The notes: generated by a model from the sequence alone, not told the origin. Positions 546 through 25,336 are shown, counted from the first letter of the stretch. The stretch is DNA of 64,000 bases from a virus (IMGVR_UViG_3300011989_000257:288001-352000); one strand, 5' to 3'. A program made the numbers and translations.

Positions 546-687
546 GGAAGCGTAGGTTTATTATGACTATTGTTTCCCTTTAATCACTTTCACTGCTACT
601 ATACTTCACAATTACAGTGTGGTACTTCAGCCCTTTGCCTAATTTCAAGAAGTAACGTTAATTATTATTCAACTGCTGTACGCTTCC
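546..687 (-). ncRNA. CAGCA-stem ncRNA element 1 (contains a Tyr-like anticodon hairpin)
   Basis: GGAAGCGTA-CAGCAG ... TACGCTTCC 9-bp closing stem; internal CACA-CTGTAAT-TGTG. Confidence 0.7.
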
Positions 688-711
688 AAAAGTATTTTTG
701 TGTCAATTGCG

Positions 712-978
712 TCAACCATAATGTCTAGCAAACTCTATCTCTGCGTCAGCTTCCTCCCTAGGGTTAACTTCTATACCATTATTGCCGTAATATTCACACT
801 TATTATAAATATTGCTAGCAATATTTGGCGATACATGTAGAGTTCTTGCCATATCAATGATTTTTTCTATTTTAGTTTTTGTGGGTGCTTGTTTTCTTTT
901 CTTTTTTACACCACTTCCAAACATTTTTTCTGCTCCATCAAAATAATAATACATATGTTGCTTATGTTTTAAATCCAA
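712..978 (-). CDS. hypothetical protein (start uncertain)
   Basis: 88-aa ORF between ncRNA elements. Confidence 0.55.
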   Translation of the reverse strand: MDLKHKQHMYYYFDGAEKMFGSGVKKKRKQAPTKTKIEKIIDMARTLHVSPNIASNIYNKCEYYGNNGIEVNPREEADAEIEFARHYG

Positions 979-986
979 AATAAAAA

Positions 987-1140
987 AGGAACGGTCAATT
1001 TACTGTCGTGACTAGACATTTGCTCTTTCGAGCGAATGGATAAGTGCCTCGCAATTATGATTTAGTGCTTCGCTTACCCTCATACAAATCTAATTAACAA
1101 AAAGCTTTAATTTAAATTAATAAGACTGCTGTACGTTCCT
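987..1140 (-). ncRNA. CAGCA-stem ncRNA element 2
   Basis: AGGAACG-TACAGCAG ... CGTTCCT followed by a T tract; internal hairpin CATTCGCTC-GAAA-GAGCAAATG. Confidence 0.7.
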
Positions 1141-1294
1141 AAAAAAAATTCCATACGAAGTTCCACCATATGTGGATTTTCTTAACTTGAATGGAATGAT
1201 ATTTCTCCACATCGTGCTCGGAGTCTAACCTTGCGACAGTGAACTTTGATGTGTGCTCTTCTGTTCCATATATCGATTCCGATGTGGAGATTTG

Positions 1295-1898
1295 TGATGG
1301 GGGTGGGATTCGAACCCACGACCTGAAGCTTCATACCACTCTATGTTACCATAGCCAACAAACGATGTTTTTAAACAGCTTATTACACAGCCTCCGCTTA
1401 CTGAGACGTTTGTTGTTGTAGTCTGGAATACATTTTTACCACATTGAAATTCTTGCAAGATACCAATCAGATTCCTATTCCAAGATGTGTTTTCTACTAA
1501 GTACACGGCATTGATAAATTTCAACTTAGGCATTCTTATCAGATGCATCTGAATAGAATGTGAGGGTATTCAATATATTTCCCTCATAACTCCTATATAC
1601 TCTCTACACGTTTATGAGCCTGTGACATTCCAACCTGAATATTACACGAGGTATTCACAGTATTTCATCTTACTCAATTTAGCACGGTATTATCCTCACA
1701 CATTATTGGTTAGTGCCGAGATAAAGTCGCAGACTCGAACCTTGGTCTTCACTATAAGTGACGTGTTTCCTATTACACCAAAATTATCTCGTACAAGGAT
1801 TTCCACCGTTTTAGGGAGTTTCTACTATGGGATTTCTCGCCATAGCATCCAATTTATTTATAGAAGGCTCCTGCTCTGTCCAACTGAGCTACCCCACC
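1295..1898 (-). tRNA. tRNA-Arg(TCT) interrupted by a group I intron (exons 1862-1898 and 1295-1331)
   Basis: 5' exon GGTGGGGTAGCTCAGTTGGACAGAGCAGGAGCCTTCT joined to 3' exon AAGCTTCAGGTCGTGGGTTCGAATCCCACCCCCATCA gives a complete cloverleaf with loop CTTCTAA. Confidence 0.9.
1332..1861 (-). mobile_element. group I intron (530 nt, no homing endonuclease ORF)
   Basis: Follows an exon U and ends in G. Core-like motifs AAAACGGTGGAAATCC (P), AATACCGTGCTAA (Q), GTGTAGAGAGTATA (R) and AAAATGTATTCC (S); R/S can pair GAGTATA/TGTATTC. Confidence 0.85.
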
Positions 1899-1905
1899 AT
1901 TTTTT

Positions 1906-2175
1906 TTATTTCGGTTCAAAATAACTTTCTTTTTTGCATTTGCCAATGCTTTCATATGTAATTGCCCCAAAGTTCTTACTTAGCAGACACATATCATAAT
2001 TATCAAAGTATTTGCAATTTGAGCAAAAACTATTTTCATAACTCTTTACATAATCCTCATCAATAAATGAATAAGAATCATCAACTAATGGCGCTTTTTT
2101 AATTTCATATACAATTATAAGAATCGACACAACAAATAATGATATAATAGTGCCAAGTAAAATTGTCCAAATCAT
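1906..2175 (-). CDS. small membrane-anchored Cys-containing protein
   Basis: Hydrophobic N-terminus followed by CxxC and further Cys. Confidence 0.65.
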   Translation of the reverse strand: MIWTILLGTIISLFVVSILIIVYEIKKAPLVDDSYSFIDEDYVKSYENSFCSNCKYFDNYDMCLLSKNFGAITYESIGKCKKESYFEPK

Positions 2176-2351
2176 ATCCCTTTTCTCATCTTAATTTTTT
2201 TAGCCACAGCCTCAATATCATTATCGAAAGATTTTCTTCTCTCTTCTTCTGACATTGGCTTACTATCTTTCTTATTAAGATAATTGCTTATCACCACAAG
2301 TACAAGTACCATAATAAAGGCAACAAACAATATAAATAATATCCTTCCCAT
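2172..2351 (-). CDS. small membrane protein (59 aa, not in the ORF track)
   Basis: MGRILFILFVAFIMVLVLVVISNYLNKK..., just downstream of promoter 2372-2406; ATGA overlap with the next gene. Confidence 0.6.
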   Translation of the reverse strand: MGRILFILFVAFIMVLVLVVISNYLNKKDSKPMSEEERRKSFDNDIEAVAKKIKMRKGI

Positions 2352-2425
2352 ATACTATAATATTTTCACAATGCAAAGATACTAAAAAAAATTGGAATAA
2401 CCAAATTTTATTAGAACTTTTTTTG

Positions 2426-2513
2426 TGCCCCTAGTAGGACTCAAACCTACACGCTACTATTACTTCACACTAGATTCTAATTCTAGGGTGTCTATCAATT
2501 CCACCATAGGGGC
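2426..2513 (-). tRNA. tRNA-Leu(TAG)
   Basis: Acceptor GCCCCTA/TAGGGGC; CTAGA-ATTAGAA-TCTAG; long variable arm. Confidence 0.85.
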
Positions 2514-2519
2514 AAATAC

Positions 2520-2668
2520 GGAAACAACTTTCGTTTTTAACTGCCGTGTCTACCACTCCACCACCACTTGATATCTAATACTAATAGTGTCAAGTGGGTA
2601 GGATTCGAACCTACGAACCTTTCGGTAGCAGTTCCCTCATAAAAGAAATAATATTGCTGTATGTTTCC
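2520..2668 (-). ncRNA. CAGCA-stem element 3: circularly permuted Leu-like tRNA body opened at the anticodon loop
   Basis: GGAAACA-TACAGCAA ... AACTGC-variable arm-GTAGGTTCGAATCCTAC-CCACTTG-linker-CAAGTGG-TGGTGGAGTGGTAGACAC-GGCAGTT ... TGTTTCC. Confidence 0.85.
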
Positions 2669-2675
2669 TTAAAGG

Positions 2676-2748
2676 TGGGCCCACCCAGATTCGAACTGGG
2701 GATACAGGATTATGAGTCGTGCGTTTTAACCTATTGAACTACAGGCCC
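2676..2748 (-). tRNA. tRNA(CAT), probably Ile2-type
   Basis: Acceptor GGGCCTG/TGGGCCC; loop CTCATAA; one C-C mismatch in the anticodon stem. Confidence 0.8.
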
Positions 2749-3309
2749 TTATTCATTTAATTTTCTTAGACGTTGAATGATTTTTCTAGTTATACCAAAA
2801 TGTTTGGCAACTTTTTCCCAAGATTTCAACTCATTATATTTTTCTACTAATTCATTGTATGATGGATATTTTTCATTTATTTCAGCTTCTCTGCACTCTT
2901 TAGAACAATAAAGTTTACCAGCTACATAATCAAATTCCTTTCCACAGTGCTTACATATCGCTTTTCTTTTTATGCTAGAAAATACTGAGGAATGCTTTGA
3001 CTGCATTTCTTCAATTAAATTATCTATGTTATCTTTATCAAACTGAGGGTTGTGTAACTCTCTATGACAATTTGAACATACAATAATACATTTATCAAGT
3101 TCCTCAAGAATTTTTCCTTTGGTTGTATTCGATAAGTGCCTTGAGTCTAACTGAAAACTCTTAATGCTAGGGTCTAAATGGTGAAATTCTAATGCTGCAA
3201 TATTTTTATCATATCCACACCTTTCACATTTCCCCCCTTTTAATCTGATAATTTCTAATTTCCTACTTAATGCTCTTTCTTTTTGTTTCAAATAATCATT
3301 TGGATTCAT
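2749..3309 (-). CDS. HNH homing endonuclease-like protein
   Basis: CERCG...LEFHH...CSNCHRELH HNH motif, a second CxxC...CxxxC, and a C-terminal HTH-like segment. Confidence 0.85.
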   Translation of the reverse strand: MNPNDYLKQKERALSRKLEIIRLKGGKCERCGYDKNIAALEFHHLDPSIKSFQLDSRHLSNTTKGKILEELDKCIIVCSNCHRELHNPQFDKDNIDNLIEEMQSKHSSVFSSIKRKAICKHCGKEFDYVAGKLYCSKECREAEINEKYPSYNELVEKYNELKSWEKVAKHFGITRKIIQRLRKLNE

Positions 3310-3419
3310 AATACTATTCTTTTTATATATAAATAGTACTTAAACCTCAAAAGTTATTATGATATACATAATTAATTAGTAATATGTTCTAATCATTTTA
3401 TAAATTTAGGCGCTTTAAC

Positions 3420-3452
3420 GTCTGCTGCTCTGACCAACTGAGCTAAAGGCCC
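3420..3452 (-). pseudogene. orphan 5' half of a tRNA (Ile2-like), truncated at the anticodon loop
   Basis: GGGCCTTTAGCTCAGTTGGTCAGAGCAGCAGAC followed by unrelated sequence upstream of the HNH gene. Confidence 0.75.
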
Positions 3453-3462
3453 CTTTATAATT

Positions 3463-3666
3463 TTAAATCATATTATTCCAATATGGATAATTTTTTCTTT
3501 CAGATAATGGTGTATCATACAATTCATAACTTGCACCACAATAAGGGCAACTTGCATTTGTCACCATTGCATCGTCTTCTTCTGACAATTCTTCTCCATT
3601 AATTTCACTGAGCATAAAATTACCTCCAATAATGAGGTCATGCCCACAACGCATACATTTTTCCAT
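3463..3666 (-). CDS. small zinc-ribbon protein (67 aa)
   Basis: MEKCMRCG...CPYCG; the longer ORF-track version runs through tRNAs. Confidence 0.7.
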   Translation of the reverse strand: MEKCMRCGHDLIIGGNFMLSEINGEELSEEDDAMVTNASCPYCGASYELYDTPLSERKNYPYWNNMI

Positions 3667-3689
3667 ATTGTTAGTTTTTAGTTTGATAG

Positions 3690-3803
3690 AGCCGTGTGCT
3701 GGATTCGAACCAACGTTTGTACTTAAACACCCCTTGTGCATATGCTGGTACCTATTGGGGTCGCCTCGTTTGCGCTGTGCTGACCGTCTTACACTAACAC
3801 GGC
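3690..3803 (-). ncRNA. tRNA-like RNA with greatly expanded anticodon domain
   Basis: Perfect GCCGTGT/ACACGGC acceptor and normal D and T arms; ~55 nt replaces the anticodon arm. Confidence 0.7.
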
Positions 3804-3812
3804 AATTTTTAG

Positions 3813-3886
3813 AGCGTGTGAGGAGGCTCGAACTCCCAGCCTTTGCCTTGGCAAGGCAACTATCTAACCAATTGATATACACACGC
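3813..3886 (-). tRNA. tRNA-Gly(GCC)
   Basis: GCGTGTG/CACACGC-T; TTGCC-TTGCCAA-GGCAA. Confidence 0.9.
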
Positions 3887-3892
3887 AAATAA

Positions 3893-4042
3893 GGAAACGT
3901 TTTTTTGTTTATTGATACTGCTCTAGCCAACTGAGCTACCGCCACATATTAGTTGTTGTATTATAGAGTGGCGGGTGGGATTCGAACCCACGACCCGTAG
4001 CTTGGAATGCTTTGTAAACGAATAACCTTGCTGCACGTTTCC
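3893..4042 (-). ncRNA. CAGCA-stem element 4: circularly permuted Gly-like tRNA body opened at the anticodon arm
   Basis: GGAAACGT-GCAGCAA ... TTCCAA-GCTAC-GGGTC-GTGGGTTCGAATCCCAC-CCGCCAC-linker-GTGGCGG-TAGCTCAGTTGGCTAGAGC-AGTATC ... ACGTTTCC. Confidence 0.85.
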
Positions 4043-4046
4043 ACTG

Positions 4047-4118
4047 AGACGATGAACGGAATCGAACCGTCATCCTTTGCTTGGGAAGCAAATACACTAG
4101 CCACTGTGCTACACCGTC
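4047..4118 (-). tRNA. tRNA-Gly(CCC)
   Basis: GACGGTG/CATCGTC-T; TTTGC-TTCCCAA-GCAAA. Confidence 0.85.
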
Positions 4119-4293
4119 AAAATAAGTTCGTTTTTTATAACCGTATAACGAAACCAAAATTCCCACACCTACGATTGGGAAATAGTTTGAAAAGTTTGCA
4201 GATGGATACAACTGGGTATTCCATATACACTTCTCAGGGACTATCCACGTTACGTTGAGCCTCAAATCTCTTTTGAGATTTTTTTTAATTTTG

Positions 4294-4371
4294 AGTGGGA
4301 TAACGGAATCGAACCGTCGCTTGCCTACACCTTGGAAGGGTGTCGTGCGCCTCCAACTACACTAATCCCAC
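4294..4371 (-). tRNA. tRNA-Gly(TCC)
   Basis: GTGGGAT/ATCCCAC-T; ACACC-CTTCCAA-GGTGT. Confidence 0.85.
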
Positions 4372-4566
4372 ATAAGTGAACTAACTTTGTGACATTGCAA
4401 AACCAATGTCTGGTTTGGTATTAGTCCATGAGCTGTTTACCATTATTGCAGCAACCGTTTATCTAACCATTGATGAAGATGAAAGGAGAATGTAGACAAA
4501 ATAAATGGCTGATAAACTTTGGGTTTTAGCATCTACCCACAAGCCTATATTTCTCCTAATTTCGAG

Positions 4567-5586
4567 TTACTGAACAGTAATTACAATGGCTGTTCTACCC
4601 TTCTCAGAGTCAACACCCTTACCTTCTGCACTAGCAACCTTAATACCCCTCTTGGTCAGAAAGTCAGCAACCTTTGCAGCTCTCATTTCAGAAAGCTTCT
4701 GATTGAACTCCTTATTACCTTCTGGTGATGCAGTAGCAGTAACATCTACAATTGAATTCTCGCCAATCTGATTAAGGATAAATACAGCGGCAGGTGTCAA
4801 TGTTGACTTACCGAATTCAAATGGAACAATCCACTTTGCAGTTCCCTCATTTACAGTAACAGTTTTCTCTACTACCTTCTCTACCTCCTTAATCTGAGGC
4901 TCACGACTCTCGCACTCCGCAATCCTACCGTTGAGGTATGAAATCTCATTAAGCATAGCACCTACGTCATAAGTCTTGAAGTGGTGTGTACCATTACCGT
5001 TCTTGAAGTGATAAATAAATGACACATTAACTGCCAACTGTGCGTTGTGCTTGTCGAAATGGATATGACCAGGCTTGTTAAGATTCCAATAAACTGCTGG
5101 AGTTACAACAATTGAAGTTGCCTTATTCTTGCCAAGGTTAAAAGCAAGGTCAAGACCAGTCTTTGCTGTCATGTAGTTCGCTGATGTGTTCCATGTGTGA
5201 AGCCAACCAATACCAGTTACGGTACTAACCTCAAAAACACGTGGCGTACCATTATACCCCCCAAAGATATTGGACAAGTTAAATACCGCATTTGCGCCAA
5301 CATTTGTAGCCTTGATAGCAGTTTTAATGTCACTGAAATGGTTGTCATTCAGTACTGCCAAACCCTCTGCTTGAATACCAAACACAGGAGAAAAATCCTT
5401 CTGTACTTTCAGTCCTACATTAGTGTTGAGTGGGAACATTGAATTGAAGTCAAGAGGTGTAGAAACACCAGCGGTCACTCCAAAACTAATGTTGTCGAAA
5501 ACACGACTGTTCTCAGTCGCAATCTGTGCGTTTGCACTCGTAAATGCACTTACCATGAGTGCAAACATCAAAACAAATTTCTTCAT
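4567..5586 (-). CDS. OmpA-family outer membrane protein (Bacteroidota type)
   Basis: Signal peptide, beta-barrel-like N-terminal region, coiled linker, and C-terminal ASPEG..NQKLSEMRA OmpA motif. Confidence 0.8.
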   Translation of the reverse strand: MKKFVLMFALMVSAFTSANAQIATENSRVFDNISFGVTAGVSTPLDFNSMFPLNTNVGLKVQKDFSPVFGIQAEGLAVLNDNHFSDIKTAIKATNVGANAVFNLSNIFGGYNGTPRVFEVSTVTGIGWLHTWNTSANYMTAKTGLDLAFNLGKNKATSIVVTPAVYWNLNKPGHIHFDKHNAQLAVNVSFIYHFKNGNGTHHFKTYDVGAMLNEISYLNGRIAECESREPQIKEVEKVVEKTVTVNEGTAKWIVPFEFGKSTLTPAAVFILNQIGENSIVDVTATASPEGNKEFNQKLSEMRAAKVADFLTKRGIKVASAEGKGVDSEKGRTAIVITVQ

Positions 5587-5636
5587 AACTTTTCTTTTTT
5601 TTTTGATTTTTGTTTAAATTATTATCACTAGAAAAA

Positions 5637-5746
5637 GGGAACTTTATTTTCGGTGGGATTCGAACCCACAAGTGCATTAAGCACAAAAGATTTCAAGTCT
5701 CTCAAGTCAACCATTCCTTCACGATGAATACTTGCTGTAAGTTCCC
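5637..5746 (-). ncRNA. CAGCA-stem element 5: Ser(TGA)-like tRNA body whose acceptor stem is replaced by the conserved stem
   Basis: GGGAACTT-ACAGCAA ... D arm, AGAGA-CTTGAAA-TCTTT, variable arm GTGC-TTAAT-GCAC, GTGGGTTCGAATCCCAC ... AAGTTCCC. Confidence 0.8.
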
Positions 5747-5755
5747 ACATATTTT

Positions 5756-6079
5756 TTACCAATCTTCAAAAGGGAGGTCATCATAATCTACCTCCTTTCT
5801 AACACCCCACTTATATAAGTAATGTGGTATACCATCAACCAAATCCTTCCTAAAAGTAGGTGTTTGCATTTCAAGTCCTTTTCTAGTAAAGGTCTTTTCT
5901 ATTAATTCAAAAGCCTCAGAACAATATGGATATGTTGTCTCAATTTCAACCTTTAGAAACTGAACATAACTTAAGTCATTCTTTGACTTATCAATCGCCT
6001 CTTGTATCTTCCTTATAAAATAAAGACAATACTTAGGAAAATTAATATCATCCTTTGTTATTTTCTTATATTCGCTCAT
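5756..6079 (-). CDS. hypothetical protein
   Basis: 107-aa ORF ending DDLPFEDW. Confidence 0.7.
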   Translation of the reverse strand: MSEYKKITKDDINFPKYCLYFIRKIQEAIDKSKNDLSYVQFLKVEIETTYPYCSEAFELIEKTFTRKGLEMQTPTFRKDLVDGIPHYLYKWGVRKEVDYDDLPFEDW

Positions 6080-6240
6080 AACATTATCAAATTAAAAACA
6101 TCAACTATCACGTCTGGGTTGCTACTAGAGACCTCACCTCCACCACTACCTCTCCAGGAAGATAACCTGGTACATTCTTTCGATTTTCACGACCCCACCG
6201 TTTATTGGACTGACATGGTAACGATTATTTGATGTTTATG

Positions 6241-6313
6241 TCGAGGTGACAGGGCTCGAACCTGCGACCTCATGGTCCCAAACCACGTGCTCTACCTACT
6301 GAGCTACGCCTCG
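6241..6313 (-). tRNA. tRNA-Pro(TGG)
   Basis: CGAGGCG/CACCTCG-A; CGTGG-TTTGGGA-CCATG; canonical D and T arms. Confidence 0.9.
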
Positions 6314-6459
6314 ATTAGTTACCTTTAATCATAAGGTACTCCTTCTTCTTCTCCAGCATAGATATAAGGGTCTTCATTATCTTTGATGTAATCCCATTCC
6401 CCATATCTATCATAATAACCATCTGCACAAGCCATAATTCATTAATTTTTAAAAAAGTC

Positions 6460-6575
6460 GGAAACATTTTTTCTTACTTAGCTATCACACCTAATGGCGT
6501 GAGTTGGACTTGAACCAACGACCCTTAAATTATGAATTTAATGCTATACCCATTATAAACTTGCTGTATGTTTCC
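6460..6575 (-). ncRNA. CAGCA-stem element 6: circularly permuted tRNA(CAT) body opened in the D loop
   Basis: GGAAACAT-ACAGCAA ... GGTATAGC-A-TTAAA-TTCATAA-TTTAA-GGGTC-GTTGGTTCAAGTCCAAC-TCACGCC-ATTA-GGTGTGA-TAGCTA ... ATGTTTCC. Confidence 0.85.
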
Positions 6576-6643
6576 TTTTATGTTTTAGCTACATTTATTT
6601 TATCTTTGCAAAGATATATATTTTTTTTGTGAATTCCAAATTT

Positions 6644-7030
6644 TTAATCAATTTTTTTCAATGGAACGAACAAATCATACCCATTATCATCTTGAAAATG
6701 ATTTATTTTGGCATCTTGCCATTCACCGAATTTATATCTTTTATATTCAAAGCACTTGCCATTCCAAGTTGCTTTATCCGCATTTCTGCAATCACCTTCA
6801 TAAGTTGTACCAATTTCAAGTTTGTCCTTTGGTATTGCTCCACAACGTATGAGGTTTTTCACAATAACCTCTTCATATATATGAGGGTCATCAACCTTTG
6901 GTATACTTGGTATGTCATCAATTGTTTTGAATGGTTTTAGGTTTTTGAACCTCTCTATTCTTTCGATGTCTTCTTTTGCTTTTCTTTCACGAAGTTTTTG
7001 TTTTATTTTTTCTAATTTCTCACTTTCCAT
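6644..7030 (-). CDS. hypothetical protein
   Basis: 128-aa ORF with ATG start. Confidence 0.75.
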   Translation of the reverse strand: MESEKLEKIKQKLRERKAKEDIERIERFKNLKPFKTIDDIPSIPKVDDPHIYEEVIVKNLIRCGAIPKDKLEIGTTYEGDCRNADKATWNGKCFEYKRYKFGEWQDAKINHFQDDNGYDLFVPLKKID

Positions 7031-7213
7031 TTATCTAACCTCTATTCTATCTCCACATTGCGGACATGTGATAAACTTTCCCATATACGTTTCACCAGCG
7101 TATGACTGTACACCGTATGAGCATTCCTTCTCCTCAATGTCAGTATCATCATACTTCAGCATTGAGCCACAGCGATAACACTTAACTACATTTCCTTTAA
7201 TCTTCCTTACCAT
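7031..7213 (-). CDS. small zinc-ribbon protein (60 aa)
   Basis: MVRKIKGNVVKCYRCG...CPQCG; the upstream ORF extension overlaps tRNA-His. Confidence 0.7.
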   Translation of the reverse strand: MVRKIKGNVVKCYRCGSMLKYDDTDIEEKECSYGVQSYAGETYMGKFITCPQCGDRIEVR

Positions 7214-7236
7214 AACACTATATATTTTGTATTTTG

Positions 7237-7310
7237 GGGGCAGTGAGGGATTCAAACCCACGTAAACAAGTGCCACAAACTTGCGCCTAAGTCTCTCGGC
7301 CAACTGTCCC
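7237..7310 (-). tRNA. tRNA-His(GTG)
   Basis: G-1:C73 pair; CAAGT-TTGTGGC-ACTTG; T arm present. Confidence 0.85.
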
Positions 7311-7498
7311 ATATTTGAACAGTAGTATATACCATTACGAGCAGATACCATTTACAGTTACTTTCAAGTTGAAACCCATCTACTTTTATGCGCACTTATT
7401 ATGTAGTCAACTTCTTCCTTTACTTGTCTGTTCTTCTGAGTGGATTGAATTTTATTCCCTACTTGGGGAAAAACCGTGCCACCATCTAAAAAAGGGTG

Positions 7499-7581
7499 TG
7501 GACTGTATCGGACTCGAACCGATGTTTCGCAGTTTGCTACGCCTTATACCGCATTTGCTCACCTGGTTGCATCAACAGCCC
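7499..7581 (-). ncRNA. tRNA-like RNA with a 14-nt anticodon-position loop
   Basis: GGGCTGT/ACAGTCC-A; ATCGG-TTCGAGT-CCGAT; TGCGGT-(14 nt)-ACTGCG. Confidence 0.65.
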
Positions 7582-7587
7582 ATAAAC

Positions 7588-7707
7588 AGGAATCTTTTTT
7601 AACTTTCGGTAGTGTTGGGCTTGAACCAACGACCTCTTGGTAAAATCCAAGGCTCTAACCAACTGAGCTAACTGTCGTGCGTTATTACCTATTGCTGTAA
7701 GATTCCT
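7588..7707 (-). ncRNA. CAGCA-stem element 7: colinear tRNA body with degenerate acceptor and a 6-nt anticodon loop
   Basis: AGGAATCTT-ACAGCAA ... TAGCTCAGTTGGTTAGAGC-CTTGG-ATTTTA-CCAAG-AGGTC-GTTGGTTCAAGCCCAAC ... AAGATTCCT. Confidence 0.8.
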
Positions 7708-7710
7708 TTG

Positions 7711-7792
7711 TCTGGAGGGTTGGATTCAAACCAACGAACTCTGCTATCTCATCACGGCTAGTTTGCAGAACTATGCTGCCGATTCCTCCAGA
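7711..7792 (-). ncRNA. tRNA-like RNA (intact acceptor and T arm, aberrant D and anticodon arms)
   Basis: CTGGAGG/CCTCCAG; GTTGG-TTTGAAT-CCAAC; TTCTGC-(20 nt)-GCAGAG. Confidence 0.55.
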
Positions 7793-7952
7793 TTTGTAAA
7801 AACCATTCTACACCCAACACTTCCAGTTGGTTCCTACATCTACGTCTCTCTCCATTATGACCCATAGATTACACGATTCCGTCTCTAACGTCTCATAGGA
7901 TTATAAAGCAGGTCATCTGTCCTATGCCTTTTAGAACCTCGAATGATTTTTG

Positions 7953-8025
7953 TCAGGGAACTTGGACTCGAACCAAGAACAGCTGGTCTCCAAAGCCAGT
8001 CGTCTACCTATTGACGTACACCCTG
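7953..8025 (-). tRNA. tRNA-Pro(TGG), second and atypical copy
   Basis: CAGGGTG/TTCCCTG-A; loop TTTGGAG; one mismatch each in the acceptor and anticodon stems. Confidence 0.7.
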
Positions 8026-8154
8026 AGTTAAAATGCCAACACTCTAGAATTCTTGCATTATATCCTCTATAGTCTTATGCTGCTCTTATTGTAATTCCAT
8101 TTATGGATACGATTCAATAATTAGAGGTTGCCTAAAGACTTGTGTTAACATTTG

Positions 8155-8240
8155 TCGGAGGAGAGGGACTCGAACCCCCAGTGTTTCTGATGTGCTGGTT
8201 TTACAGACCAGTGCTAGTCCACCATCCTAGCTGCCCTCCG
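8155..8240 (-). tRNA. tRNA-Tyr(GTA) with C1:G72
   Basis: CGGAGGG/TCCTCCG-A; CTGGT-CTGTAAA-ACCAG; long variable region. Confidence 0.85.
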
Positions 8241-8277
8241 ATTAAGCATAGGTTTCTCAACCACAATCCTTTCCTTG

Positions 8278-8634
8278 TTACTTAAATTTATATTCTATAA
8301 CATAGACATTTTTATTACCTCTGCGGTATTGTTCAATCTTTACATCATTATACATTTCTTTATGTCTTTCAGTAAAACCGCTTCTGATGAACTCAAAAAA
8401 TTTTTTCTCTTTTTCGTTGTCTGTTACGATGTATATGTCCTTAAATATATTTGTTTCTGGAACTCTACATGTCATACTTCTAACCCCTCTGAACTTGTTA
8501 TTGGTTGCCCAACCACCTTGTTCAATAAGGCCAATCGTAAACTCTTCCCAAATGGGAATATCAACTTTTAAAAATAAATTTTGTCCAAATACATCTTTTT
8601 CATTTAAATACTCTTTTGTAATTGCTTCTCTCAT
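8278..8634 (-). CDS. hypothetical protein
   Basis: 118-aa ORF. Confidence 0.7.
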   Translation of the reverse strand: MREAITKEYLNEKDVFGQNLFLKVDIPIWEEFTIGLIEQGGWATNNKFRGVRSMTCRVPETNIFKDIYIVTDNEKEKKFFEFIRSGFTERHKEMYNDVKIEQYRRGNKNVYVIEYKFK

Positions 8635-8781
8635 TTGCTTCTTTATTTAGAACTACTAATGTAACTATTAATATCTTCTAATTCACCTTCAAGTTTAGCA
8701 AGCTTTTCTTTATGCCAATTAATCTTGTTTACTATAGTATTTTTTCTGTCGTTTAATATTTTTAAGTCACTATTATTCATT

Positions 8782-9219
8782 CTATTTAAATTTTCCTAGC
8801 CTTATAGCCTCAACAAGATAGTTATATACCGTTTCCCAATCTGTCTCGGCATCGAATCCGAACTTATCGTCTATTCCTACATTAAAATACGTCTTTTCAT
8901 CAAAGCAAGACAATTCGTTATTCTTTGTCTCGCTATTGCTGTTAACCATATCGAAGCTAATGCCATTAGCTTTAAAATATTCCAGATATTCATTTATCGA
9001 TTCCTTATGACTAGATGTCCAGAGTATGAGACTGATGTTCCTAGCATAACTCATTATCTGAAGTGCCTCCTTTGAGAATGGATACCACTTATGGTTTTCC
9101 TTCTCGTGGTAGCAAGCTTCAAATATCGTATCGTGGATGTCCACAAGCACATATATATGCTCCCAATTACGGTCTTTCATACGCTTGAAAGCGTTGTCGA
9201 AACTTTTCTCTATACTCAT
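8782..9219 (-). CDS. HAD-like hydrolase (degenerate motif I)
   Basis: VDIHDTI, LILWTS and GIDDK motifs. Confidence 0.6.
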   Translation of the reverse strand: MSIEKSFDNAFKRMKDRNWEHIYVLVDIHDTIFEACYHEKENHKWYPFSKEALQIMSYARNISLILWTSSHKESINEYLEYFKANGISFDMVNSNSETKNNELSCFDEKTYFNVGIDDKFGFDAETDWETVYNYLVEAIRLGKFK

Positions 9220-9236
9220 AACATTATATTATTTGC

Positions 9237-9306
9237 CACACTAAAATGGACTCGAACCACCTACTTCAGAACGCCGTTCTGCGTGCTACCGTTACACCAT
9301 AGGTGA
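9237..9306 (-). pseudogene. degenerate Gln-like tRNA with a 5-nt anticodon loop
   Basis: TGGTGTAACGGTAGCAC D arm; CAGAA-CGGCG-TTCTG; GGTTCGAGTCC; acceptor poorly paired. Confidence 0.6.
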
Positions 9307-9439
9307 ATTGACCTCAACTTAACCATAATCTCCACGAGTTAACATTGGAAACTCATAATGTGAAAATAAGCAAGAATCGAACACTGCTTTGTTGAATTTA
9401 CCACAATCTCGGTCAGCGAACGGAGTCGAACCGTATTCG

Positions 9440-9512
9440 TTGGGATTGAGGGAATCGAACCCCCACAAGCCAAGAGCCAGAATCTTGCGTACTACCTTTA
9501 TACTAAACCCCA
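9440..9512 (-). tRNA. tRNA-Gln(CTG)
   Basis: TGGGGTT/AATCCCA; CAAGA-TTCTGGC-TCTTG. Confidence 0.85.
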
Positions 9513-9628
9513 AAGTAAGCTGAAACTCTAGCTAGTAACGTATCATGGCAGCATCCTTACCTATTCTCTCCACCTCGCAGTGACGTGGGGCAATTTAGCC
9601 AATCAACGTAGTTTCAGCTATGTTGTAA

Positions 9629-9706
9629 GGGAACAATAAAAATTCGTTTATCTAAAACCCAAATCTAGTAACTAATTTTATCAATAATTACTTGCTGTAT
9701 GTTCCC
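9629..9706 (-). ncRNA. CAGCA-stem element 8: minimal form with an isolated Pro-like anticodon hairpin
   Basis: GGGAACA-TACAGCAA ... CTAGA-TTTGGGT-TTTAG ... TGTTCCC. Confidence 0.75.
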
Positions 9707-9950: not shown

Positions 9951-10101
9951 ATATAGTAAAAGGTCAGAGCACCATAGATAACTTCGTTTTCACAATTCGG
10001 ACTTACTTACCCTCATAAGAGGTACTATTTCTTCCAAGTAAATGTGCTGTACACACACATCTCTCATGCCTAGCTATCATCATCGAATGATTAACCTTTT
10101 G

Positions 10102-15640: not shown

Positions 15641-17005
15641 TTAGAAGAACTTTTTCTTATCCTCTGCTGCCTTGATGTTCATCTTTGGCTTCATGAAGAA
15701 CTTGATATCAACTGTTGGCTCAATGAGCTTAACAATCTCATCCATTGGTTTGTAGGCATCTGGTGCTTCGTCTAGTGTTTTCTCGTCAGCAGTGGTGGTA
15801 TAGATACCTGCATCTGCCATCTGCTTCTGAAAGTCCTCTACGTTAAGCTGCTGATGGGCTTTCATCCTTGAGAGCGCCCTACCACAGCCATGCGGAGCTG
15901 TACAGTTCCAATCTTCATTTGATTTGCCTTCACATATTGAAATTCCATCCCTCATATTAAATGGTATGATTACTTTCTCTCCCTCATAAGCACGAATAGC
16001 ACCCTTACGAATCATCATATTTGGTGTACCCATCAATGCCTTGAAATCATAATCAATATAATTGTGAGTAGTAGCAATAAAATCGATTGGCTTACCACCA
16101 TCTGACATCTTTCGATAAATCTCAATCAACTGTTCATGAATCACCTCATGATTAAGTTTAGCATAAGTCTGAGCAATTAACACATCTACAAGATAGCCCA
16201 TAAGCTGGTCACCGTTCAAGTATCCTGGAATCTTACGTGATAAGTACTCCTCTCTTGCTGCATCAATCTCAGCCTTAATCTTCTGCTTGTCAGTATTCTT
16301 CTCCTTGACCTTATCCTCAAGCATCTTCATTTCCTCTCTTGAAACTACCATGCTTCTTGCTATCTTGTCCCAATAGTTGAATACTGCCAAACCTAGCTTA
16401 CGTGAGCCACAGTGTACGCACATGCAGTACTTACCCAACTCATCGTTGGCATCGTACTCTACGAAGTGATTACCTCCACCAACTGAGCCTATAGCCTTGA
16501 TAAAATCACCATAACCTATACGTACACGCTTACACCACTTCTCCAAATCCATTTCGTTGTTGAAGTAGATTGCATAATCAGCAAACTTTGGATAAAGAGA
16601 ACACAATCTGTCCATAGCCGAATTAACAGCCTTGGTGATACGCTTCCACTCAATCTTGGACTTATCGTTGATAGAGAAACCAAATGGAATCTCTTTACGA
16701 ATTTTGTGCTCAAACTCCTTCATCTTCTCCTCGACAATTGGTTTATCGAAGAAAGTAGCTGATATGGTACAACCGATATCGCAACCTACGTGCTGTGGAT
16801 TAACGTGGTCTGTCTCAATATTGACAGGACATGAGAATCCAATCACAATACCCTTACCATCGTGGCAGTCAGGCATAATTCTAATCTTCTTATCCTTGAA
16901 TGCCCTACAATCTGCTATACCGTATATGGTTGATATTGCGGTCTCCTCCACGTTATCAGTAAAGACCTTCACATCCTTACAATACTGTCCTTTAATTTCT
17001 AACAT
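15641..17005 (-). CDS. rtcB: RtcB RNA ligase (3'-phosphate/5'-OH)
   Basis: MPDCH, VGCDIGC, GGGNHFVE, VHCGSR, HNY, RKGA, PHGCGR and DEAPDAYK motifs. Confidence 0.95.
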   Translation of the reverse strand: MLEIKGQYCKDVKVFTDNVEETAISTIYGIADCRAFKDKKIRIMPDCHDGKGIVIGFSCPVNIETDHVNPQHVGCDIGCTISATFFDKPIVEEKMKEFEHKIRKEIPFGFSINDKSKIEWKRITKAVNSAMDRLCSLYPKFADYAIYFNNEMDLEKWCKRVRIGYGDFIKAIGSVGGGNHFVEYDANDELGKYCMCVHCGSRKLGLAVFNYWDKIARSMVVSREEMKMLEDKVKEKNTDKQKIKAEIDAAREEYLSRKIPGYLNGDQLMGYLVDVLIAQTYAKLNHEVIHEQLIEIYRKMSDGGKPIDFIATTHNYIDYDFKALMGTPNMMIRKGAIRAYEGEKVIIPFNMRDGISICEGKSNEDWNCTAPHGCGRALSRMKAHQQLNVEDFQKQMADAGIYTTTADEKTLDEAPDAYKPMDEIVKLIEPTVDIKFFMKPKMNIKAAEDKKKFF

Positions 17006-21994: not shown

Positions 21995-22063
21995 ATAATT
22001 TTTTTTTTTTGCAAAGATACGAAAAAAAATTGAGATAGCCAAATAACTATCCCAATTTTAATA

Positions 22064-23353: not shown

Positions 23354-23653
23354 TTTAATTATATTTTTAAATACTTTCTGAAAAAACTAATAGTCTTTTT
23401 TTACTAAGCACAGCATTAGTTATTCCTACCATTTGAATCTGACTGATAGAATTCTTTTTATAAGAGTTAGCTGTAAACTTTGATTTACCCCCTTTATTTT
23501 TCTTCTTCCTTTTCTTATAGAAAAACATATTTATTCCTAATATTATATTCTTACTTTTGCAAAGATATAATTTTTTTCTGTAAATACAAAATTGTTTAAC
23601 TTAATTTAAGAAAAATGGCCATCAACTCTCGTTAATGACCATCTATCTAATTT

Positions 23654-25336
23654 CTACAACTGAATGTAGTTAAGAATCTCTTGCGTAAGAGCCTTTTCAA
23701 CAAGTTCCTCTGCGGTAAGATTCCTTGCCTTTCCAGTCTTCTCATCAATCACCTTATCCTCTCCAAGCAATGTAGTGATAATACTTCCATCAAATCCACT
23801 AAGGAAAGTACATCCTGGTTCAATGCTCTTACCCTCAAAATGAGTAATTCCATGTCTTGAAACACAATCCCACCAAATGAATTTCATGTTATCCACAAAT
23901 TCCTCTGGGAAAACTGTCTTCAACGACTTCTTGGAGTACTCATAATTGGTTTCTTGGTTACGTGGAGAGTCATACCAACGATTAGTTGGATTAAACTCCA
24001 TATCACTTACCACCAATATAGTAGTAGGATACTGCTCCAATGGAATCTCTGGATGCTGTCGCCTAATCTTAATGATTTCGTCAACGGCAGATTGGAAATT
24101 TGTACCACCACATCCAACACTTGGAAGGTTCATTACCCTTTCACAGAACGACTCACCCTTCATGTCGTATGGATAAGAGGTGTTGTCGAACATAATGAGC
24201 TTATTGTGGAAAGCTCCAGTGTTAAGGCTAGAAAAGAATATTGCCAAAGATGTTGCAATATCTGAACAGTATACGTCCTTCAATCCAGTAACTGGCTGAT
24301 TCATTGAACCACTAGTGTCAAGGCAACACCATACATTCTCTGTAATCTTGCCGCCATCACGAGCCTTATCTACAAGTCCATTAAACTGCGCATCAATGGT
24401 ATGCTTAACCTCAATAGGTAGTTTCTTATTTGAAGTAGTATAATATCTTCTTGAACCAATACCGTATTCACGAAGTTTCTTTGAAAGCTCAAATACATAA
24501 CCAGTAAACTTAGCCACTGGCTGCTGCATTATCCATTGTGTGTAATTATCTTTCAAACCATGATTTGAAAGGAACTTACTAGTGACAAGTAAGTTCAATG
24601 CACGTCCTGGAATGTGATTCCAATTCAGTTCCTTATAATTACGAGAGCAAATCAATTTTTGGAAATCATGCGCCTTACCACTCACTTTCATCTTATTGTA
24701 TTCCTTATAAGAAATACCCATTTGATTTGCAAATGCCTTTGCCAAGTCATTTGTGATAGTAGTCCACTCTGTCTTACACTTACTCTGAGACTTGATACGA
24801 GGCATATACTTCTTAATCAAATCAACATGAGTGTCACAAAGCAAACCTTGTGCAATCACCTCAAACATAGCTTTTTGGTTTAAGCACTTAACATTCTCCT
24901 TAATGTCATAGAACATCAAAGTCCACAAGTCCTTCCAAGAGCCAACAAGTGGCAATGCCCAAATGTTCTTGTAGAATGCATCTGGTTGTTCTTGAGCAAT
25001 CCAAAGCAAACGCTTGAATGACTCATCACGAGCACCTTGTCCATTCTGAACCTTATCAGTCTCATTATCCGTGTTCACCTTAACCTTGCGAGTTACCATA
25101 CGCAAATAGAATGGGAAACGAAGTGCTGCTTCAGCATTCTCACCCCAAATGGTTGCTTGGTCAGCAAATACTTCCGCAAGTGTACGCCCTCTGAAGTTAC
25201 CAGCCTTACCAAATTGGTCAACAATTGCACTTCCAGTCGAAACAAGTGTTTTTGCTCCATTCTCTGTCAATGTTGAACTCTCGAAACCTACTGCATTAAG
25301 GAATGCGTTTGTCTTTGTCGCTGTCTTTGTATTCAT
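23654..25336 (-). CDS. DUF2828-like helical protein with C-terminal vWA domain (Ro60/TROVE-like architecture)
   Basis: TLTENGA..STG N-terminus, GQGARD, VGSWKDL, KYMPR; MIDAS-type DTSGSM, GGTNF and VSDMEF. Confidence 0.75.
   Translation of the reverse strand: MNTKTATKTNAFLNAVGFESSTLTENGAKTLVSTGSAIVDQFGKAGNFRGRTLAEVFADQATIWGENAEAALRFPFYLRMVTRKVKVNTDNETDKVQNGQGARDESFKRLLWIAQEQPDAFYKNIWALPLVGSWKDLWTLMFYDIKENVKCLNQKAMFEVIAQGLLCDTHVDLIKKYMPRIKSQSKCKTEWTTITNDLAKAFANQMGISYKEYNKMKVSGKAHDFQKLICSRNYKELNWNHIPGRALNLLVTSKFLSNHGLKDNYTQWIMQQPVAKFTGYVFELSKKLREYGIGSRRYYTTSNKKLPIEVKHTIDAQFNGLVDKARDGGKITENVWCCLDTSGSMNQPVTGLKDVYCSDIATSLAIFFSSLNTGAFHNKLIMFDNTSYPYDMKGESFCERVMNLPSVGCGGTNFQSAVDEIIKIRRQHPEIPLEQYPTTILVVSDMEFNPTNRWYDSPRNQETNYEYSKKSLKTVFPEEFVDNMKFIWWDCVSRHGITHFEGKSIEPGCTFLSGFDGSIITTLLGEDKVIDEKTGKARNLTAEELVEKALTQEILNYIQL

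What the first reader, a model, noticed from the sequence alone, without database searches (positions are those of the whole stretch)
546..9706. Family of eight CAGCA-stem ncRNAs carrying tRNA-derived cargo: candidate new Y-RNA-like class
Seen: eight minus-strand elements (546-687, 987-1140, 2520-2668, 3893-4042, 5637-5746, 6460-6575, 7588-7707, 9629-9706). Each begins with a GGRA-rich arm and TRCAGCAR and ends with the exact complement of its own first 7-9 nt. The stems differ between copies but stay paired (GGAAGCGTA/TACGCTTCC, GGAAACGT/ACGTTTCC, GGGAACTT/AAGTTCCC, AGGAATCTT/AAGATTCCT), which is covariation, while the unpaired CAGCA is invariant. The interiors are unrelated to each other and mostly tRNA-derived. 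Established: bacterial Y RNAs (YrlA) have a 5'/3' terminal stem bound by Ro60/Rsr plus a tRNA-mimic module. Inference: this is a modular RNA with a constant protein-binding handle and swappable tRNA-mimic cargo. I do not recognise its motif as the known Ro-binding motif.
Basis: partly seen in the sequence, partly recalled or inferred. Interest (0 to 1): 0.95.

Follow-up and report, generated by a model that had tools for sequence, protein, structure and literature searches.

The report
Phage Ro60-like protein's partner RNAs
A giant phage scatters through its tRNA genes a dozen small RNAs that share one short "handle" and carry copies of tRNA parts; across unrelated phages this handle always lies next to a gene for a Ro60-shaped protein, so they are probably its partner RNAs, and the handle matches the unexplained "Class I" RNAs of social amoebae.

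Summary
All eight elements lie at the stated coordinates. Four more lie just outside the window, in the same tRNA array of a 412-kb phage.

Each element has a 6-9 bp helix joining its two ends, then an unpaired, invariant RCAGCAR starting at nucleotide 10, then a variable cargo. The cargo is one of:
- a complete tRNA, circularly permuted, with its acceptor stem closed by a loop and the handle entering between anticodon-stem nucleotides 29/30 or in the D-loop;
- a degenerate tRNA;
- bare anticodon-type hairpins;
- unrelated sequence.

The helix covaries strongly. The phage encodes RtcB and a DUF2828/DUF7788 protein. Its model superposes on Ro60 over its whole length (Z 20.5), although Pfam TROVE misses it. 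In all ten loci of this protein family that I examined (identity down to 28%), 1-12 RNAs with a different helix but the same CAGCAA core lie on the gene's strand, directly beside it in seven of the nine distant loci. Rfam's only match to the handle is the Dictyostelium Class I RNA, full length but below threshold.

My reading is a Y-RNA-like partner RNA of a divergent Ro60 that displays tRNA mimics. Binding, expression and function are untested. Earlier notes of this scan describe the same pairing in eight other genomes. I found no publication on it.

The parts
9629..9706 (-). Handle RNA, 78 nt. Helix GGGAACA/TGTTCCC, then TACAGCAAG. The cargo is two hairpins, one with a Pro-type anticodon loop (CTAGA-TTTGGGT-TTTAG).
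   Evidence: model R1 scores 43.3 bits
7588..7707 (-). Handle RNA, 120 nt. Helix AGGAATCTT/AAGATTCCT. The cargo is an unpermuted, degenerate Lys(UUU)-like tRNA with a 6-nt anticodon loop and a mismatched acceptor stem.
   Evidence: R1 27.3 bits
6460..6575 (-). Handle RNA, 116 nt. Helix GGAAACAT/ATGTTTCC. The cargo is a tRNA(CAU) permuted in the D-loop, with the acceptor stem closed by the loop ATTA. Orthologues in L090 and L093 carry GAU and AAU anticodons.
5637..5746 (-). Handle RNA, 110 nt. Helix GGGAACTT/AAGTTCCC. The cargo is an unpermuted Ser(UGA)-like tRNA whose acceptor stem is reduced to about 3 bp. An orthologue lies in L124.
   Evidence: R1 31.4 bits
3893..4042 (-). Handle RNA, 150 nt. 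Helix GGAAACGT/ACGTTTCC, then GCAGCAAG. The cargo is a circularly permuted Gly(UCC)-like tRNA in the order T-arm, acceptor stem closed by a loop, D-arm. The handle enters between anticodon-stem nucleotides 29 and 30.
   Evidence: (YrlA model positions 23-86, 39.2 bits). Orthologues covary: GTA+GC/GCTAC against CTA+GC/GCTAG.
2520..2668 (-). Handle RNA, 149 nt. Helix GGAAACA/TGTTTCC. The cargo is a permuted class II tRNA with a long variable arm and a closed acceptor stem.
987..1140 (-). Handle RNA, 154 nt. Helix AGGAACG/CGTTCCT, then TACAGCAG. No tRNA feature was recognised in the cargo. A T-run follows.
546..687 (-). Handle RNA, 142 nt. Helix GGAAGCGTA/TACGCTTCC. The cargo is conserved in L053 and L127 and contains a Tyr-type hairpin (CACA-CTGTAAT-TGTG). 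tRNA-Arg starts 7 nt downstream.
23654..25336 (-). Gene for the Ro60-fold protein (Pfam DUF2828 + DUF7788/vWA, about 560 aa). It is the inferred protein partner of the handle RNAs. The ORF most likely ends at the TAG at 23654-23656.
   Evidence: pLDDT 88.6; Z 20.5 to 1YVR; MIDAS residues D340, S342 and S344 are invariant
15641..17005 (-). RtcB RNA ligase gene. It lies between the RNA array and the Ro60-like gene, on the same strand.
   Evidence: PF01139, 191.9 bits

Best explanation
These elements are genes for small non-coding RNAs that act as Y-RNA-type partners of the phage's own divergent Ro60 homologue, the DUF2828/DUF7788 protein at 23654-25336.

The constant part is the handle: a 6-9 bp helix formed by the two RNA ends, the single-stranded RCAGCAR that follows the 5' strand, and an A-rich stretch opposite it. 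I infer that this is the protein-binding site, analogous to the conserved stem that Ro60 grips on Y RNAs.

The variable part displays a tRNA look-alike. It can be a whole tRNA that is circularly permuted so that the acceptor end is sealed and cannot be charged. In the smallest members it is only an anticodon stem-loop.

I infer that the particle presents these mimics to proteins that act on tRNA anticodon arms. Candidates are host anticodon nucleases, which the mimics would decoy or sense, and RNA-repair enzymes such as the neighbouring RtcB. Either way the tRNA pool would be protected or repaired during infection.

Shown here: the RNA architecture, its covariation, the Ro60 fold of the protein model, and the gene-RNA linkage across phages. 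Inferred: transcription as discrete RNAs, binding to the protein, and the biological role.
For: 1. The architecture and covariation are real.

2. The protein model has high confidence (pLDDT 88.6, pTM 0.88). Its 12 best Foldseek matches are all Ro60, Rsr or TROVE (E 7e-9). VIA-align gives Z 20.5, rmsd 3.9 A and 418 aligned residues against Xenopus Ro60, spanning residues 18-529. All Ro60 entries score Z 13.6-20.5, while the next matches, which cover the vWA domain only, reach 10.9. The MIDAS motif DxSxS is invariant.

3. Linkage. Orthologues of the protein are present in all four related records tested, each of which holds the RNAs. All nine distant homologues whose contigs I fetched (28-37% identity; L135/136, L137/138, L140, L142, L143, L144, L145, L147, L149/150) have 1-7 tandem RNAs on the gene's strand. 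These have a quite different helix but the same [A/U]CAGCAA at the same register. In seven of the nine loci they lie directly beside the gene; in L147 most and in L140 all lie 1-3.6 kb downstream. The background for my loose scan is about 0.07 hits per kb.

4. The cargo in those lineages is again often an anticodon-type hairpin. Lys CUUUUAA recurs in L142, L143, L145 and in this phage's own clade. Hairpins with a U33/R37-type 7-nt loop occur in 49 of 74 elements, against a mean of 12 after shuffling; this count includes T-loops.

5. The permuted tRNA cargo has the same module order as YrlA: T-arm, closed acceptor stem, D-arm.

6. RtcB is adjacent, which gives the same trio as the Salmonella rsr-yrlBA-rtcBA operon described in PMC4201824 and PMC7790460.

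7. The elements are followed either by a T-run or, 6-7 nt later, by a tRNA 5' end. This fits defined 3' ends.
Against: - There is no expression or end-mapping data.
- No binding test was possible.
- In this genome the Ro60-like gene lies 14-40 kb from the RNAs rather than next to them.
- The handle lacks the known Ro-binding motif GNCGAA/GGUCCGA. Pfam TROVE does not detect the protein. The parallel with Ro60 and Y RNA therefore rests on fold and gene neighbourhood.
- Many cargo hairpins do not have a canonical anticodon loop. Two of the eight window copies have little or no tRNA likeness.
- The proposed role as decoy or repair scaffold is conjecture.
Confidence: 0.68

Rival explanations
1. The permuted copies are true permuted tRNA genes, as in the red alga Cyanidioschyzon. 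In that case the ends are cut and joined (for example by the phage RtcB), the acceptor loop is opened by RNase P and RNase Z, and functional tRNAs result. The handle would be the processing signal.
For: - Elements 6575, 4042 and 2668, and two copies upstream of the window, contain every tRNA arm with matching acceptor strands, a discriminator base and sensible anticodon loops.
- The acceptor-closing loop often starts with CAA, as do the trailers of ordinary tRNAs in the array.
- RtcB is encoded nearby.
Against: - The same handle carries cargo that cannot become a tRNA: bare hairpins, a 6-nt anticodon loop, a decayed acceptor stem, or unrelated sequence.
- In distant phages the cargo I inspected was mostly one or two short hairpins, and I recognised no full tRNA body.
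- Where I could read an anticodon in the cargo, it duplicates an intact tRNA gene in the same genome.
- The junction is a 6-9 bp terminal helix with an asymmetric loop, not a bulge-helix-bulge.
- No splicing endonuclease is found in the phage.
Confidence: 0.1
2. The elements are punctuation of the tRNA operon. They would be processing or termination signals recognised by host RNases or RNA polymerase, with no partner protein of their own, and the cargo would be decaying tRNA debris.
For: - They sit between tRNA genes, typically 3-5 nt after a tRNA 3' end.
- They are followed by T-runs or by the next tRNA.
Against: - An invariant unpaired heptamer at a fixed register across phages whose Ro60-like proteins share only 28-37% identity is not expected of a terminator.
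- In several of the distant loci I saw no tRNA gene flanking the RNAs. There they form tandem sets next to the DUF2828 gene, some with their own promoter-like sequence (L142, L143, L145).
- Cargo is conserved between orthologous copies, with compensatory changes.
Confidence: 0.08
3. The handle is a small self-cleaving or self-ligating ribozyme that trims tRNA trailers or circularises its cargo.
For: - It lies immediately downstream of tRNAs.
- RtcB nearby could join ribozyme-made ends.
- From memory, gut phages are known to place minimal HDV-like ribozymes after tRNAs. I did not check this here.
Against: - No Rfam ribozyme family matches the elements, even at E up to 5-10.
- The topology does not fit an HDV-like fold, because the 5' end pairs with the very 3' end.
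- Only about 7 invariant unpaired nucleotides plus a generic helix are conserved, and the interior is free to vary.
Confidence: 0.05
4. The elements work at the DNA level, as miniature inverted-repeat mobile elements or recombination sites that shuffle tRNA cassettes.
For: They have terminal inverted repeats, occur in many copies and carry variable inserts.
Against: - All copies point the same way as the surrounding tRNA genes, 36 to 0 in the relatives.
- The conserved CAGCA lies on one arm only.
- G-U pairs occur in the helix.
- I saw no target-site duplications at the element ends (flanks).
- The RNAs are linked to a gene for an RNA-binding fold.
Confidence: 0.03

Closest known systems
Bacterial and phage Y RNAs of the YrlA type with Ro60/Rsr (Rfam RF02553; Chen et al. 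2014, PMC4201824; Thermus phage phiLo Ro60 with Yrl1/2, PMC12135203)
   Same: - Small RNAs whose 5' and 3' ends pair into a stem, next to a conserved motif.
- A second module that mimics tRNA. In YrlA the order is T-arm, closed acceptor stem, D-arm, exactly as in element 4042-3893.
- Encoded with a Ro60-fold protein that has a vWA/MIDAS domain, and often with RtcB.
   Different: - The handle motif is RCAGCAR after a 6-9 bp helix, not GNCGAA or CGAA.
- The protein belongs to DUF2828/DUF7788 and is missed by Pfam TROVE.
- The anticodon loop is kept rather than replaced by the Ro stem.
- The cargo ranges from a whole tRNA down to a single hairpin.
- There are up to 12 paralogous RNAs per genome.
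- The YrlA model scores 39 bits against a threshold of 69.
Class I RNAs of dictyostelid social amoebae (Rfam RF01414; Kjellin et al. 2021, PMC7919456)
   Same: - A roughly 6 bp helix joining the ends, whose sequence varies through compensatory changes.
- A conserved motif containing ACAGCAA immediately after the 5' strand. The Rfam consensus is GaUcuC-CUUACAGCAAU...GagAuC-UG.
- A variable middle, a length of about 60 nt in the minimal members, and many paralogues.
- Many phage copies start (A)G and end C-UG(U), like the amoebal AAG...CUGU.
- RF01414 gives full-length hits exactly on phage elements in five lineages, at 19.7-33.4 bits. The authors used 25 bits or more as their candidate cut-off.
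   Different: - All hits are below Rfam's threshold of 41.5, and none falls on this window's own copies.
- CAGCA sits one nucleotide closer to the 5' end.
- The window copies are longer (78-154 nt) and carry tRNA bodies.
- The known Class I binder is the RRM protein Rnp1A.
- Class I RNAs were reported as unique to Dictyostelia.
- I could not test whether amoebae have a DUF2828 protein.
Circularly permuted tRNA genes of Cyanidioschyzon merolae and split tRNAs of Nanoarchaeum (from my own knowledge; reviewed in PMC3400036)
   Same: - The 3' half of a tRNA lies upstream of its 5' half in one unit.
- The leader and trailer pair with each other.
- The junctions lie in the anticodon stem or the D-loop.
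   Different: - There is no bulge-helix-bulge at the junction.
- There is no splicing endonuclease.
- The anticodons are redundant with intact tRNA genes.
- The same handle sits on cargo that is not a tRNA.

Membership tests
Y RNA / YrlA (RF02553) | [quoted passage not shown] | tested here: met
   A 6-9 bp terminal helix with covariation
Y RNA / YrlA (RF02553) | Ro-binding sequence GNCGAAN0-1G (bacteria) or GGUCCGA (animals) in the stem region | tested here: not met
   The handle reads GGRARCNN-RCAGCAR. No GNCGAA is present in the first 20 nt of any copy. The motif is defined in PMC4201824.
Y RNA / YrlA (RF02553) | tRNA-like module (T-arm, closed acceptor stem, D-arm) scoring above the Rfam threshold | tested here: not met
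   The module is present in elements 4042, 2668 and 6575. The best score is 39.2 bits against a gathering score of 69, and only model positions 23-86 match.
Y RNA / YrlA (RF02553) | Encoded with a Ro60 orthologue | tested here: inconclusive
   There is no Pfam TROVE hit in the genome. A Ro60-fold DUF2828/DUF7788 protein is encoded 14 kb away, and its homologues elsewhere lie near such RNAs, directly adjacent in seven of nine distant loci.
Y RNA / YrlA (RF02553) | Bound by Ro60 in vivo | not testable with these tools
   Needs immunoprecipitation or a gel-shift assay
Dictyostelium Class I RNA (RF01414) | Short (about 6 bp) stem joining the ends, kept by compensatory changes | tested here: met
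Dictyostelium Class I RNA (RF01414) | Conserved 11-nt motif next to the 5' stem strand (consensus CCUUACAGCAA) | tested here: inconclusive
   The 7-nt core (A/G)CAGCA(A/G) is invariant and correctly placed. The preceding CCUU is not conserved, and the register is one nucleotide shorter.
Dictyostelium Class I RNA (RF01414) | Score at or above the Rfam gathering threshold (41.5 bits) | tested here: not met
   The best score is 33.4 bits (L147), with others at 19.7-28.8. There is no hit on the window's own copies at E up to 5.
Dictyostelium Class I RNA (RF01414) | Length 42-65 nt, start AAG, end CUGU | tested here: inconclusive
   Minimal members in the relatives are 45-68 nt and many read aG...Ctg(t). 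The window copies are 78-154 nt and mostly lack the CUGU end.
Permuted tRNA genes (C. merolae type) | 3' half upstream of the matching 5' half | tested here: met
   Elements 6575, 4042 and 2668, plus two copies upstream of the window
Permuted tRNA genes (C. merolae type) | Bulge-helix-bulge at the leader/trailer junction, and a splicing endonuclease | tested here: not met
   The junction is a 6-9 bp terminal helix with an asymmetric loop. PF01974 is absent from the phage. The host was not examined.
Ro60 / TROVE proteins (for the gene at 23654-25336) | HEAT-repeat ring plus vWA domain with a MIDAS motif | tested here: met
   Z 20.5 over 418 residues to 1YVR. All Ro60 entries rank on top. D340, S342 and S344 are invariant.
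Ro60 / TROVE proteins (for the gene at 23654-25336) | Match to Pfam TROVE (PF05731) | tested here: not met
   No candidate in the whole genome, while the control genomes were detected. Pfam assigns DUF2828 and DUF7788 instead.

The most novel reading that the evidence does not exclude
The phage CAGCA-handle RNAs and the Class I RNAs of dictyostelid amoebae may be one ancient RNA family whose conserved partner is the DUF2828/DUF7788 branch of Ro60. In that case Class I RNAs are not unique to Dictyostelia. Their long-unknown role would be that of Y-RNA-like cofactors of a Ro60 paralogue. Phages would have expanded the family into arrays that display tRNA anticodon arms in order to interfere with, or repair damage from, tRNA-targeting host defences.
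Probability: 0.35. Interest if true: 0.92.

Novelty: new variant of a known kind. Interest (0 to 1): 0.85.

Why it matters
Ro60 and its Y RNAs are a conserved but still poorly understood RNA-surveillance system. They are known from animals, some bacteria and a few phages.

This finding points to a second, much more divergent Ro60 branch. Pfam lists it only as domains of unknown function, and a library search found 2337 relatives. This branch has its own partner RNA family with a different recognition motif.

The RNAs are easy to find from sequence. Their cargo, which ranges from anticodon loops to whole sealed tRNAs, suggests a concrete and testable function in the contest over tRNAs between phages and bacterial defences.

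The likeness to Dictyostelium Class I RNAs gives a candidate protein partner for an abundant amoebal RNA class whose function has been open since 2004.

It also shows that tRNA scanners mis-annotate or miss these loci. ARAGORN calls two of the window's copies tRNAs: 5645-5728 as tRNA-Ser and 7606-7677 as a tRNA with an undetermined anticodon.

Tried and rejected
Hypotheses rejected:
- Known ribozymes (HDV-like or theta, hammerhead, twister, hatchet, pistol). No Rfam hit falls on any element at E up to 5-10, and the topology does not fit an HDV-like fold.
- Retron-like RNA (end repeats plus an AGC next to the stem). There is no reverse transcriptase in the genome.
- A second conserved helix between the T-rich stretch after CAGCAAG and the A-rich 3' side. 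Single-sequence folds give no consistent partner, and CAGCA is mostly unpaired.
- A handle copy on the start codon of the Ro60-like gene, a lead from an earlier scan note. It is not present here: the leader reads ACAGCGA inside the ORF only. A possible case exists in L147 at 5970.

Searches that gave nothing:
- A megablast of the region against GenBank phages found no match.
- Literature searches for permuted tRNAs in phages, for DUF2828, and for Class I RNA together with phage or Ro60 found no description of this system. Burroughs and Aravind 2016 (NAR 44:8525), which may discuss TROVE-like families, is not held in the library.

Tools that failed or were closed:
- The search for homologous proteins timed out.
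A homologue returned only viral clusters.
- The atlas fold search did not complete.
- The search for related loci could not use the protein alignments.

As a result I could not sample cellular genomes, and I could not check whether Dictyostelium has a DUF2828 protein.

Full report
**Setting.** The window is bases 288001-352000 of a 412,514-bp virus record judged complete. Its first 10 kb, read on the minus strand, belong to a tRNA array that spans about 266-298 kb of the genome. ARAGORN finds 42 tRNAs in the genome, including a CUA suppressor. An OmpA-like ORF that I read in the array sequence, and promoter-like TTTG motifs, suggest a Bacteroidota host. That is my inference and was not tested.

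**Observation.**
- Each starts (A)GGRANC-NN-RCAGCAR and ends with the complement of its first 7-9 nt.
- Four further copies lie upstream of the window, at genome coordinates 281718-281592, 277738-277605, 275328-275261 and 272729-272672.
- A scan of IMG/VR with one variant of the motif found true relatives among chance hits.
- In five related records the degenerate pattern hits 36 times, always on one strand per record. The reversed-pattern control hits 0 times.
- I collected 57 distinct copies. CAGCA starts at nucleotide 10 in every one. Pairs 1-6 are always Watson-Crick. Pairs 3, 5 and 7 covary, and positions 9 and -9 are A opposite A. Pairs 1-6 were a selection criterion, but by my tally, 45 of 46 motif hits inside arrays close in this way.
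- I built a covariance model from 36 short members of several lineages. It finds 55 copies, all on the strand of their array or of the neighbouring Ro60-like gene.
- On that alignment 85.6% of cells pair against 66.6% in shuffles. There are 95 double-sided changes against 28. The covariation score is 0.492 against 0.160, with 0/500 shuffles reaching it in each case. Slid partners reach at most 0.166. That alignment is fitted to the model. My independent end-anchored count agrees with it.

**Cargo.** Five kinds can be told apart.
- Permuted tRNA with the junction in the anticodon stem. Elements 4042-3893 and 2668-2520, and two upstream copies, contain a complete tRNA in permuted order: anticodon region, variable loop, T-arm, acceptor 3' strand, a closing loop, acceptor 5' strand, D-arm. 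In the Gly-, Thr-, Met- and Pro-like versions the handle enters between nucleotides 29 and 30 of the anticodon stem. The three nucleotides after the D-arm plus the two before the anticodon loop together pair with the 3' strand. This pairing covaries between orthologues: GTA+GC/GCTAC, CTA+GC/GCTAG, ACG+GA/TCCGT, ACG+GG/CCCGT and ACT+GC/GCAGT.
- Permuted tRNA with the junction in the D-loop. Element 6575-6460 and its orthologues in L090 and L093 are of this kind, with CAU, GAU or AAU anticodons.
- Unpermuted but crippled tRNAs. Elements 7707-7588 and 5746-5637 have a 6-nt anticodon loop and a decayed acceptor stem respectively.
- Bare hairpins. The shortest members (52-80 nt) carry hairpins with anticodon-type loops: Lys CUUUUAA, Cys CUGCAAA, Pro UUUGGGU and Thr CUUGUAA.
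- Other sequence. Elements 1140-987 and 687-546 carry conserved sequence that is not a tRNA.

Where I could read an anticodon in the cargo, it duplicates an intact tRNA gene of the same genome.

**Rfam on the window.** Rfam gives only a sub-threshold YrlA hit on the permuted tRNA module of 4042-3893: 39.2 bits against a threshold of 69, covering model positions 23-86. The YrlA stem region is not matched.

**Protein partner.**
- A Pfam TROVE search of the genome was negative.
- Pfam assigns it DUF2828 plus DUF7788, with a weak VWA_2 match.
- A library-wide phmmer search found 2337 relatives.
- A model built from 46 of them has pLDDT 88.6 and pTM 0.88.
- Its 12 best Foldseek matches in the PDB are all Ro60, Rsr or TROVE structures aligned over the full length.
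- VIA-align gives Z 20.5 to Xenopus Ro60 and Z 13.6-20.5 to all Ro60 entries. The next matches cover the vWA domain only and reach 10.9.
- The MIDAS DxSxS residues are invariant.
- RtcB lies at 15641-17005 and a TyrRS gene at 22058-23416, both on the same strand.

**Linkage, the key test.**
- Orthologues of the Ro60-like protein occur in all four related records tested, each of which holds the RNAs. RtcB occurs in three of those four.
- More telling, I fetched the contigs of nine distant homologues (28-37% identity). Every one carries tandem small elements on the gene's strand. The terminal helix has an unrelated sequence (AGATCTC, AGCACGC, AGGTCTCT, AGAAGAC, GTGTGGT and others). Then come one or two nucleotides, then [A/U]CAGCAA at the same register, a 30-60 nt variable middle that is often an anticodon-type hairpin, an A-rich stretch, the closing strand, and frequently UG(U). 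In seven of the nine loci the elements lie directly beside the gene; in L147 most and in L140 all lie 1-3.6 kb downstream.
- With this genome's clade that makes ten of ten loci. My loose scan has a background of about 0.07 hits per kb.
- Phylogenetically spread gene-RNA linkage of this kind is the usual basis for assigning a partner. It does not show binding.

**Unexpected relative.**
- When I scanned the distant loci against Rfam, the only family that matched the elements was RF01414, the Class I RNA of Dictyostelium.
- The hits are full length (model positions 1-56) and fall exactly on elements I had delimited independently, in five lineages. The scores are 33.4, 28.8, 28.1, 27.9, 25.3, 23.7, 23.4, 23.0, 22.8 and 19.7 bits, against a gathering score of 41.5.
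- The Rfam consensus GaUcuC-CUUACAGCAAU...A-rich...GagAuC-UG has the same plan.
- Kjellin et al. (PMC7919456) describe Class I RNAs as follows. They are 42-65 nt long. A 6-bp end-joining stem is kept by compensatory changes. An unpaired 11-nt motif sits beside the 5' strand. The 5'-most G is conserved, the ends read AAG...CUGU, and the middle is variable. The function is unknown, and they were reported as unique to Dictyostelia.
- The authors used 25 bits or more as a candidate cut-off. The window's own copies get no RF01414 hit.
- I could not test whether amoebae encode a DUF2828 protein.

**Interpretation.**
- The best-supported reading is a Y-RNA-like ribonucleoprotein. A divergent Ro60 ring would bind the helix-plus-CAGCA handle, and the cargo would display tRNA look-alikes.
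- This works like Ro60 with YrlA. It is not a member of the YrlA family, because the Ro-binding motif is absent and the model score is below threshold.
- The sealed acceptor end, the redundant anticodons and the bare-hairpin members argue against maturation into working tRNAs. So do the absence of a bulge-helix-bulge and of a splicing endonuclease.
- What the particle does is inferred only. The anticodon arm is the part that is kept when the cargo shrinks, and RtcB is a neighbour. From this I favour a role in decoying or sensing anticodon-directed enzymes, or in scaffolding tRNA repair.

**Limits.** There is no binding test and no sampling of cellular genomes.

**Earlier notes and literature.** Earlier notes of this scan report the same protein-RNA pairing, and the same Class I likeness, in eight other genomes. 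I read them only after reaching these results. They are not independent evidence. I found no publication that describes the system.

Noticed in passing
window 1290-1897 (-): A tRNA-Arg(UCU)-like gene is interrupted in its anticodon loop by an insert of about 540 nt. The two exons have matching acceptor strands (GGTGGGG / CCCCATC). This is probably a group I-type intron, but Rfam gives no hit here.
   Followed up: partly
window 3410-3453 (-) and ORF 2749-3309 (-): An orphan tRNA 5' half (acceptor strand, D-arm, start of the anticodon stem) is followed by an HNH-type ORF that I read from its translation. The matching 3' strand AGGCCCC is absent from the first 12 kb.
   Followed up: partly
window 7711-7800 (-): An odd tRNA-like gene with a long, irregular D/anticodon region lies directly upstream of element 7707-7588. 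Some relatives show a similar tRNA end directly before a GGAATC-type element (L120, L126).
   Followed up: no
window 23654-23656; genome 271506-271597: The Ro60-like ORF most likely stops at a TAG, since homologues end at about residue 560. Yet the genome encodes a tRNA with a CUA anticodon, so TAG may not be recoded uniformly.
   Followed up: no
window 3893-4042 (-) and orthologues in L093, L120, L126, L127: In the Gly-type elements the 5' arm (AAACG) can also pair locally with a conserved CGTTT about 15 nt downstream. This alternative hairpin would enclose the CAGCA motif.
   Followed up: no
window 9960-10100 (-): The spacer between tRNA-Glu and tRNA-Arg contains GTGTGTACAGCACAT, a CAGCA in a different context. 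I saw no closing helix for it.
   Followed up: no
L121 6500-6872 and 2020-2387; L009 2081-2433: The tRNA arrays of related phages contain a tmRNA (106.7 bits in L121, 45.6 bits in L009) and a weak group I intron match (31.1 bits).
   Followed up: no
L135 995-1059: There is a weak full-length match to the type-P1 twister ribozyme (29.7 bits against a threshold of 67.2) about 3.4 kb upstream of that phage's Ro60-like gene.
   Followed up: no
L147 5970-6020: One handle-like element overlaps the start codon of that phage's Ro60-like gene. This could indicate autoregulation. No such copy is found at the start of the gene in this window.
   Followed up: partly
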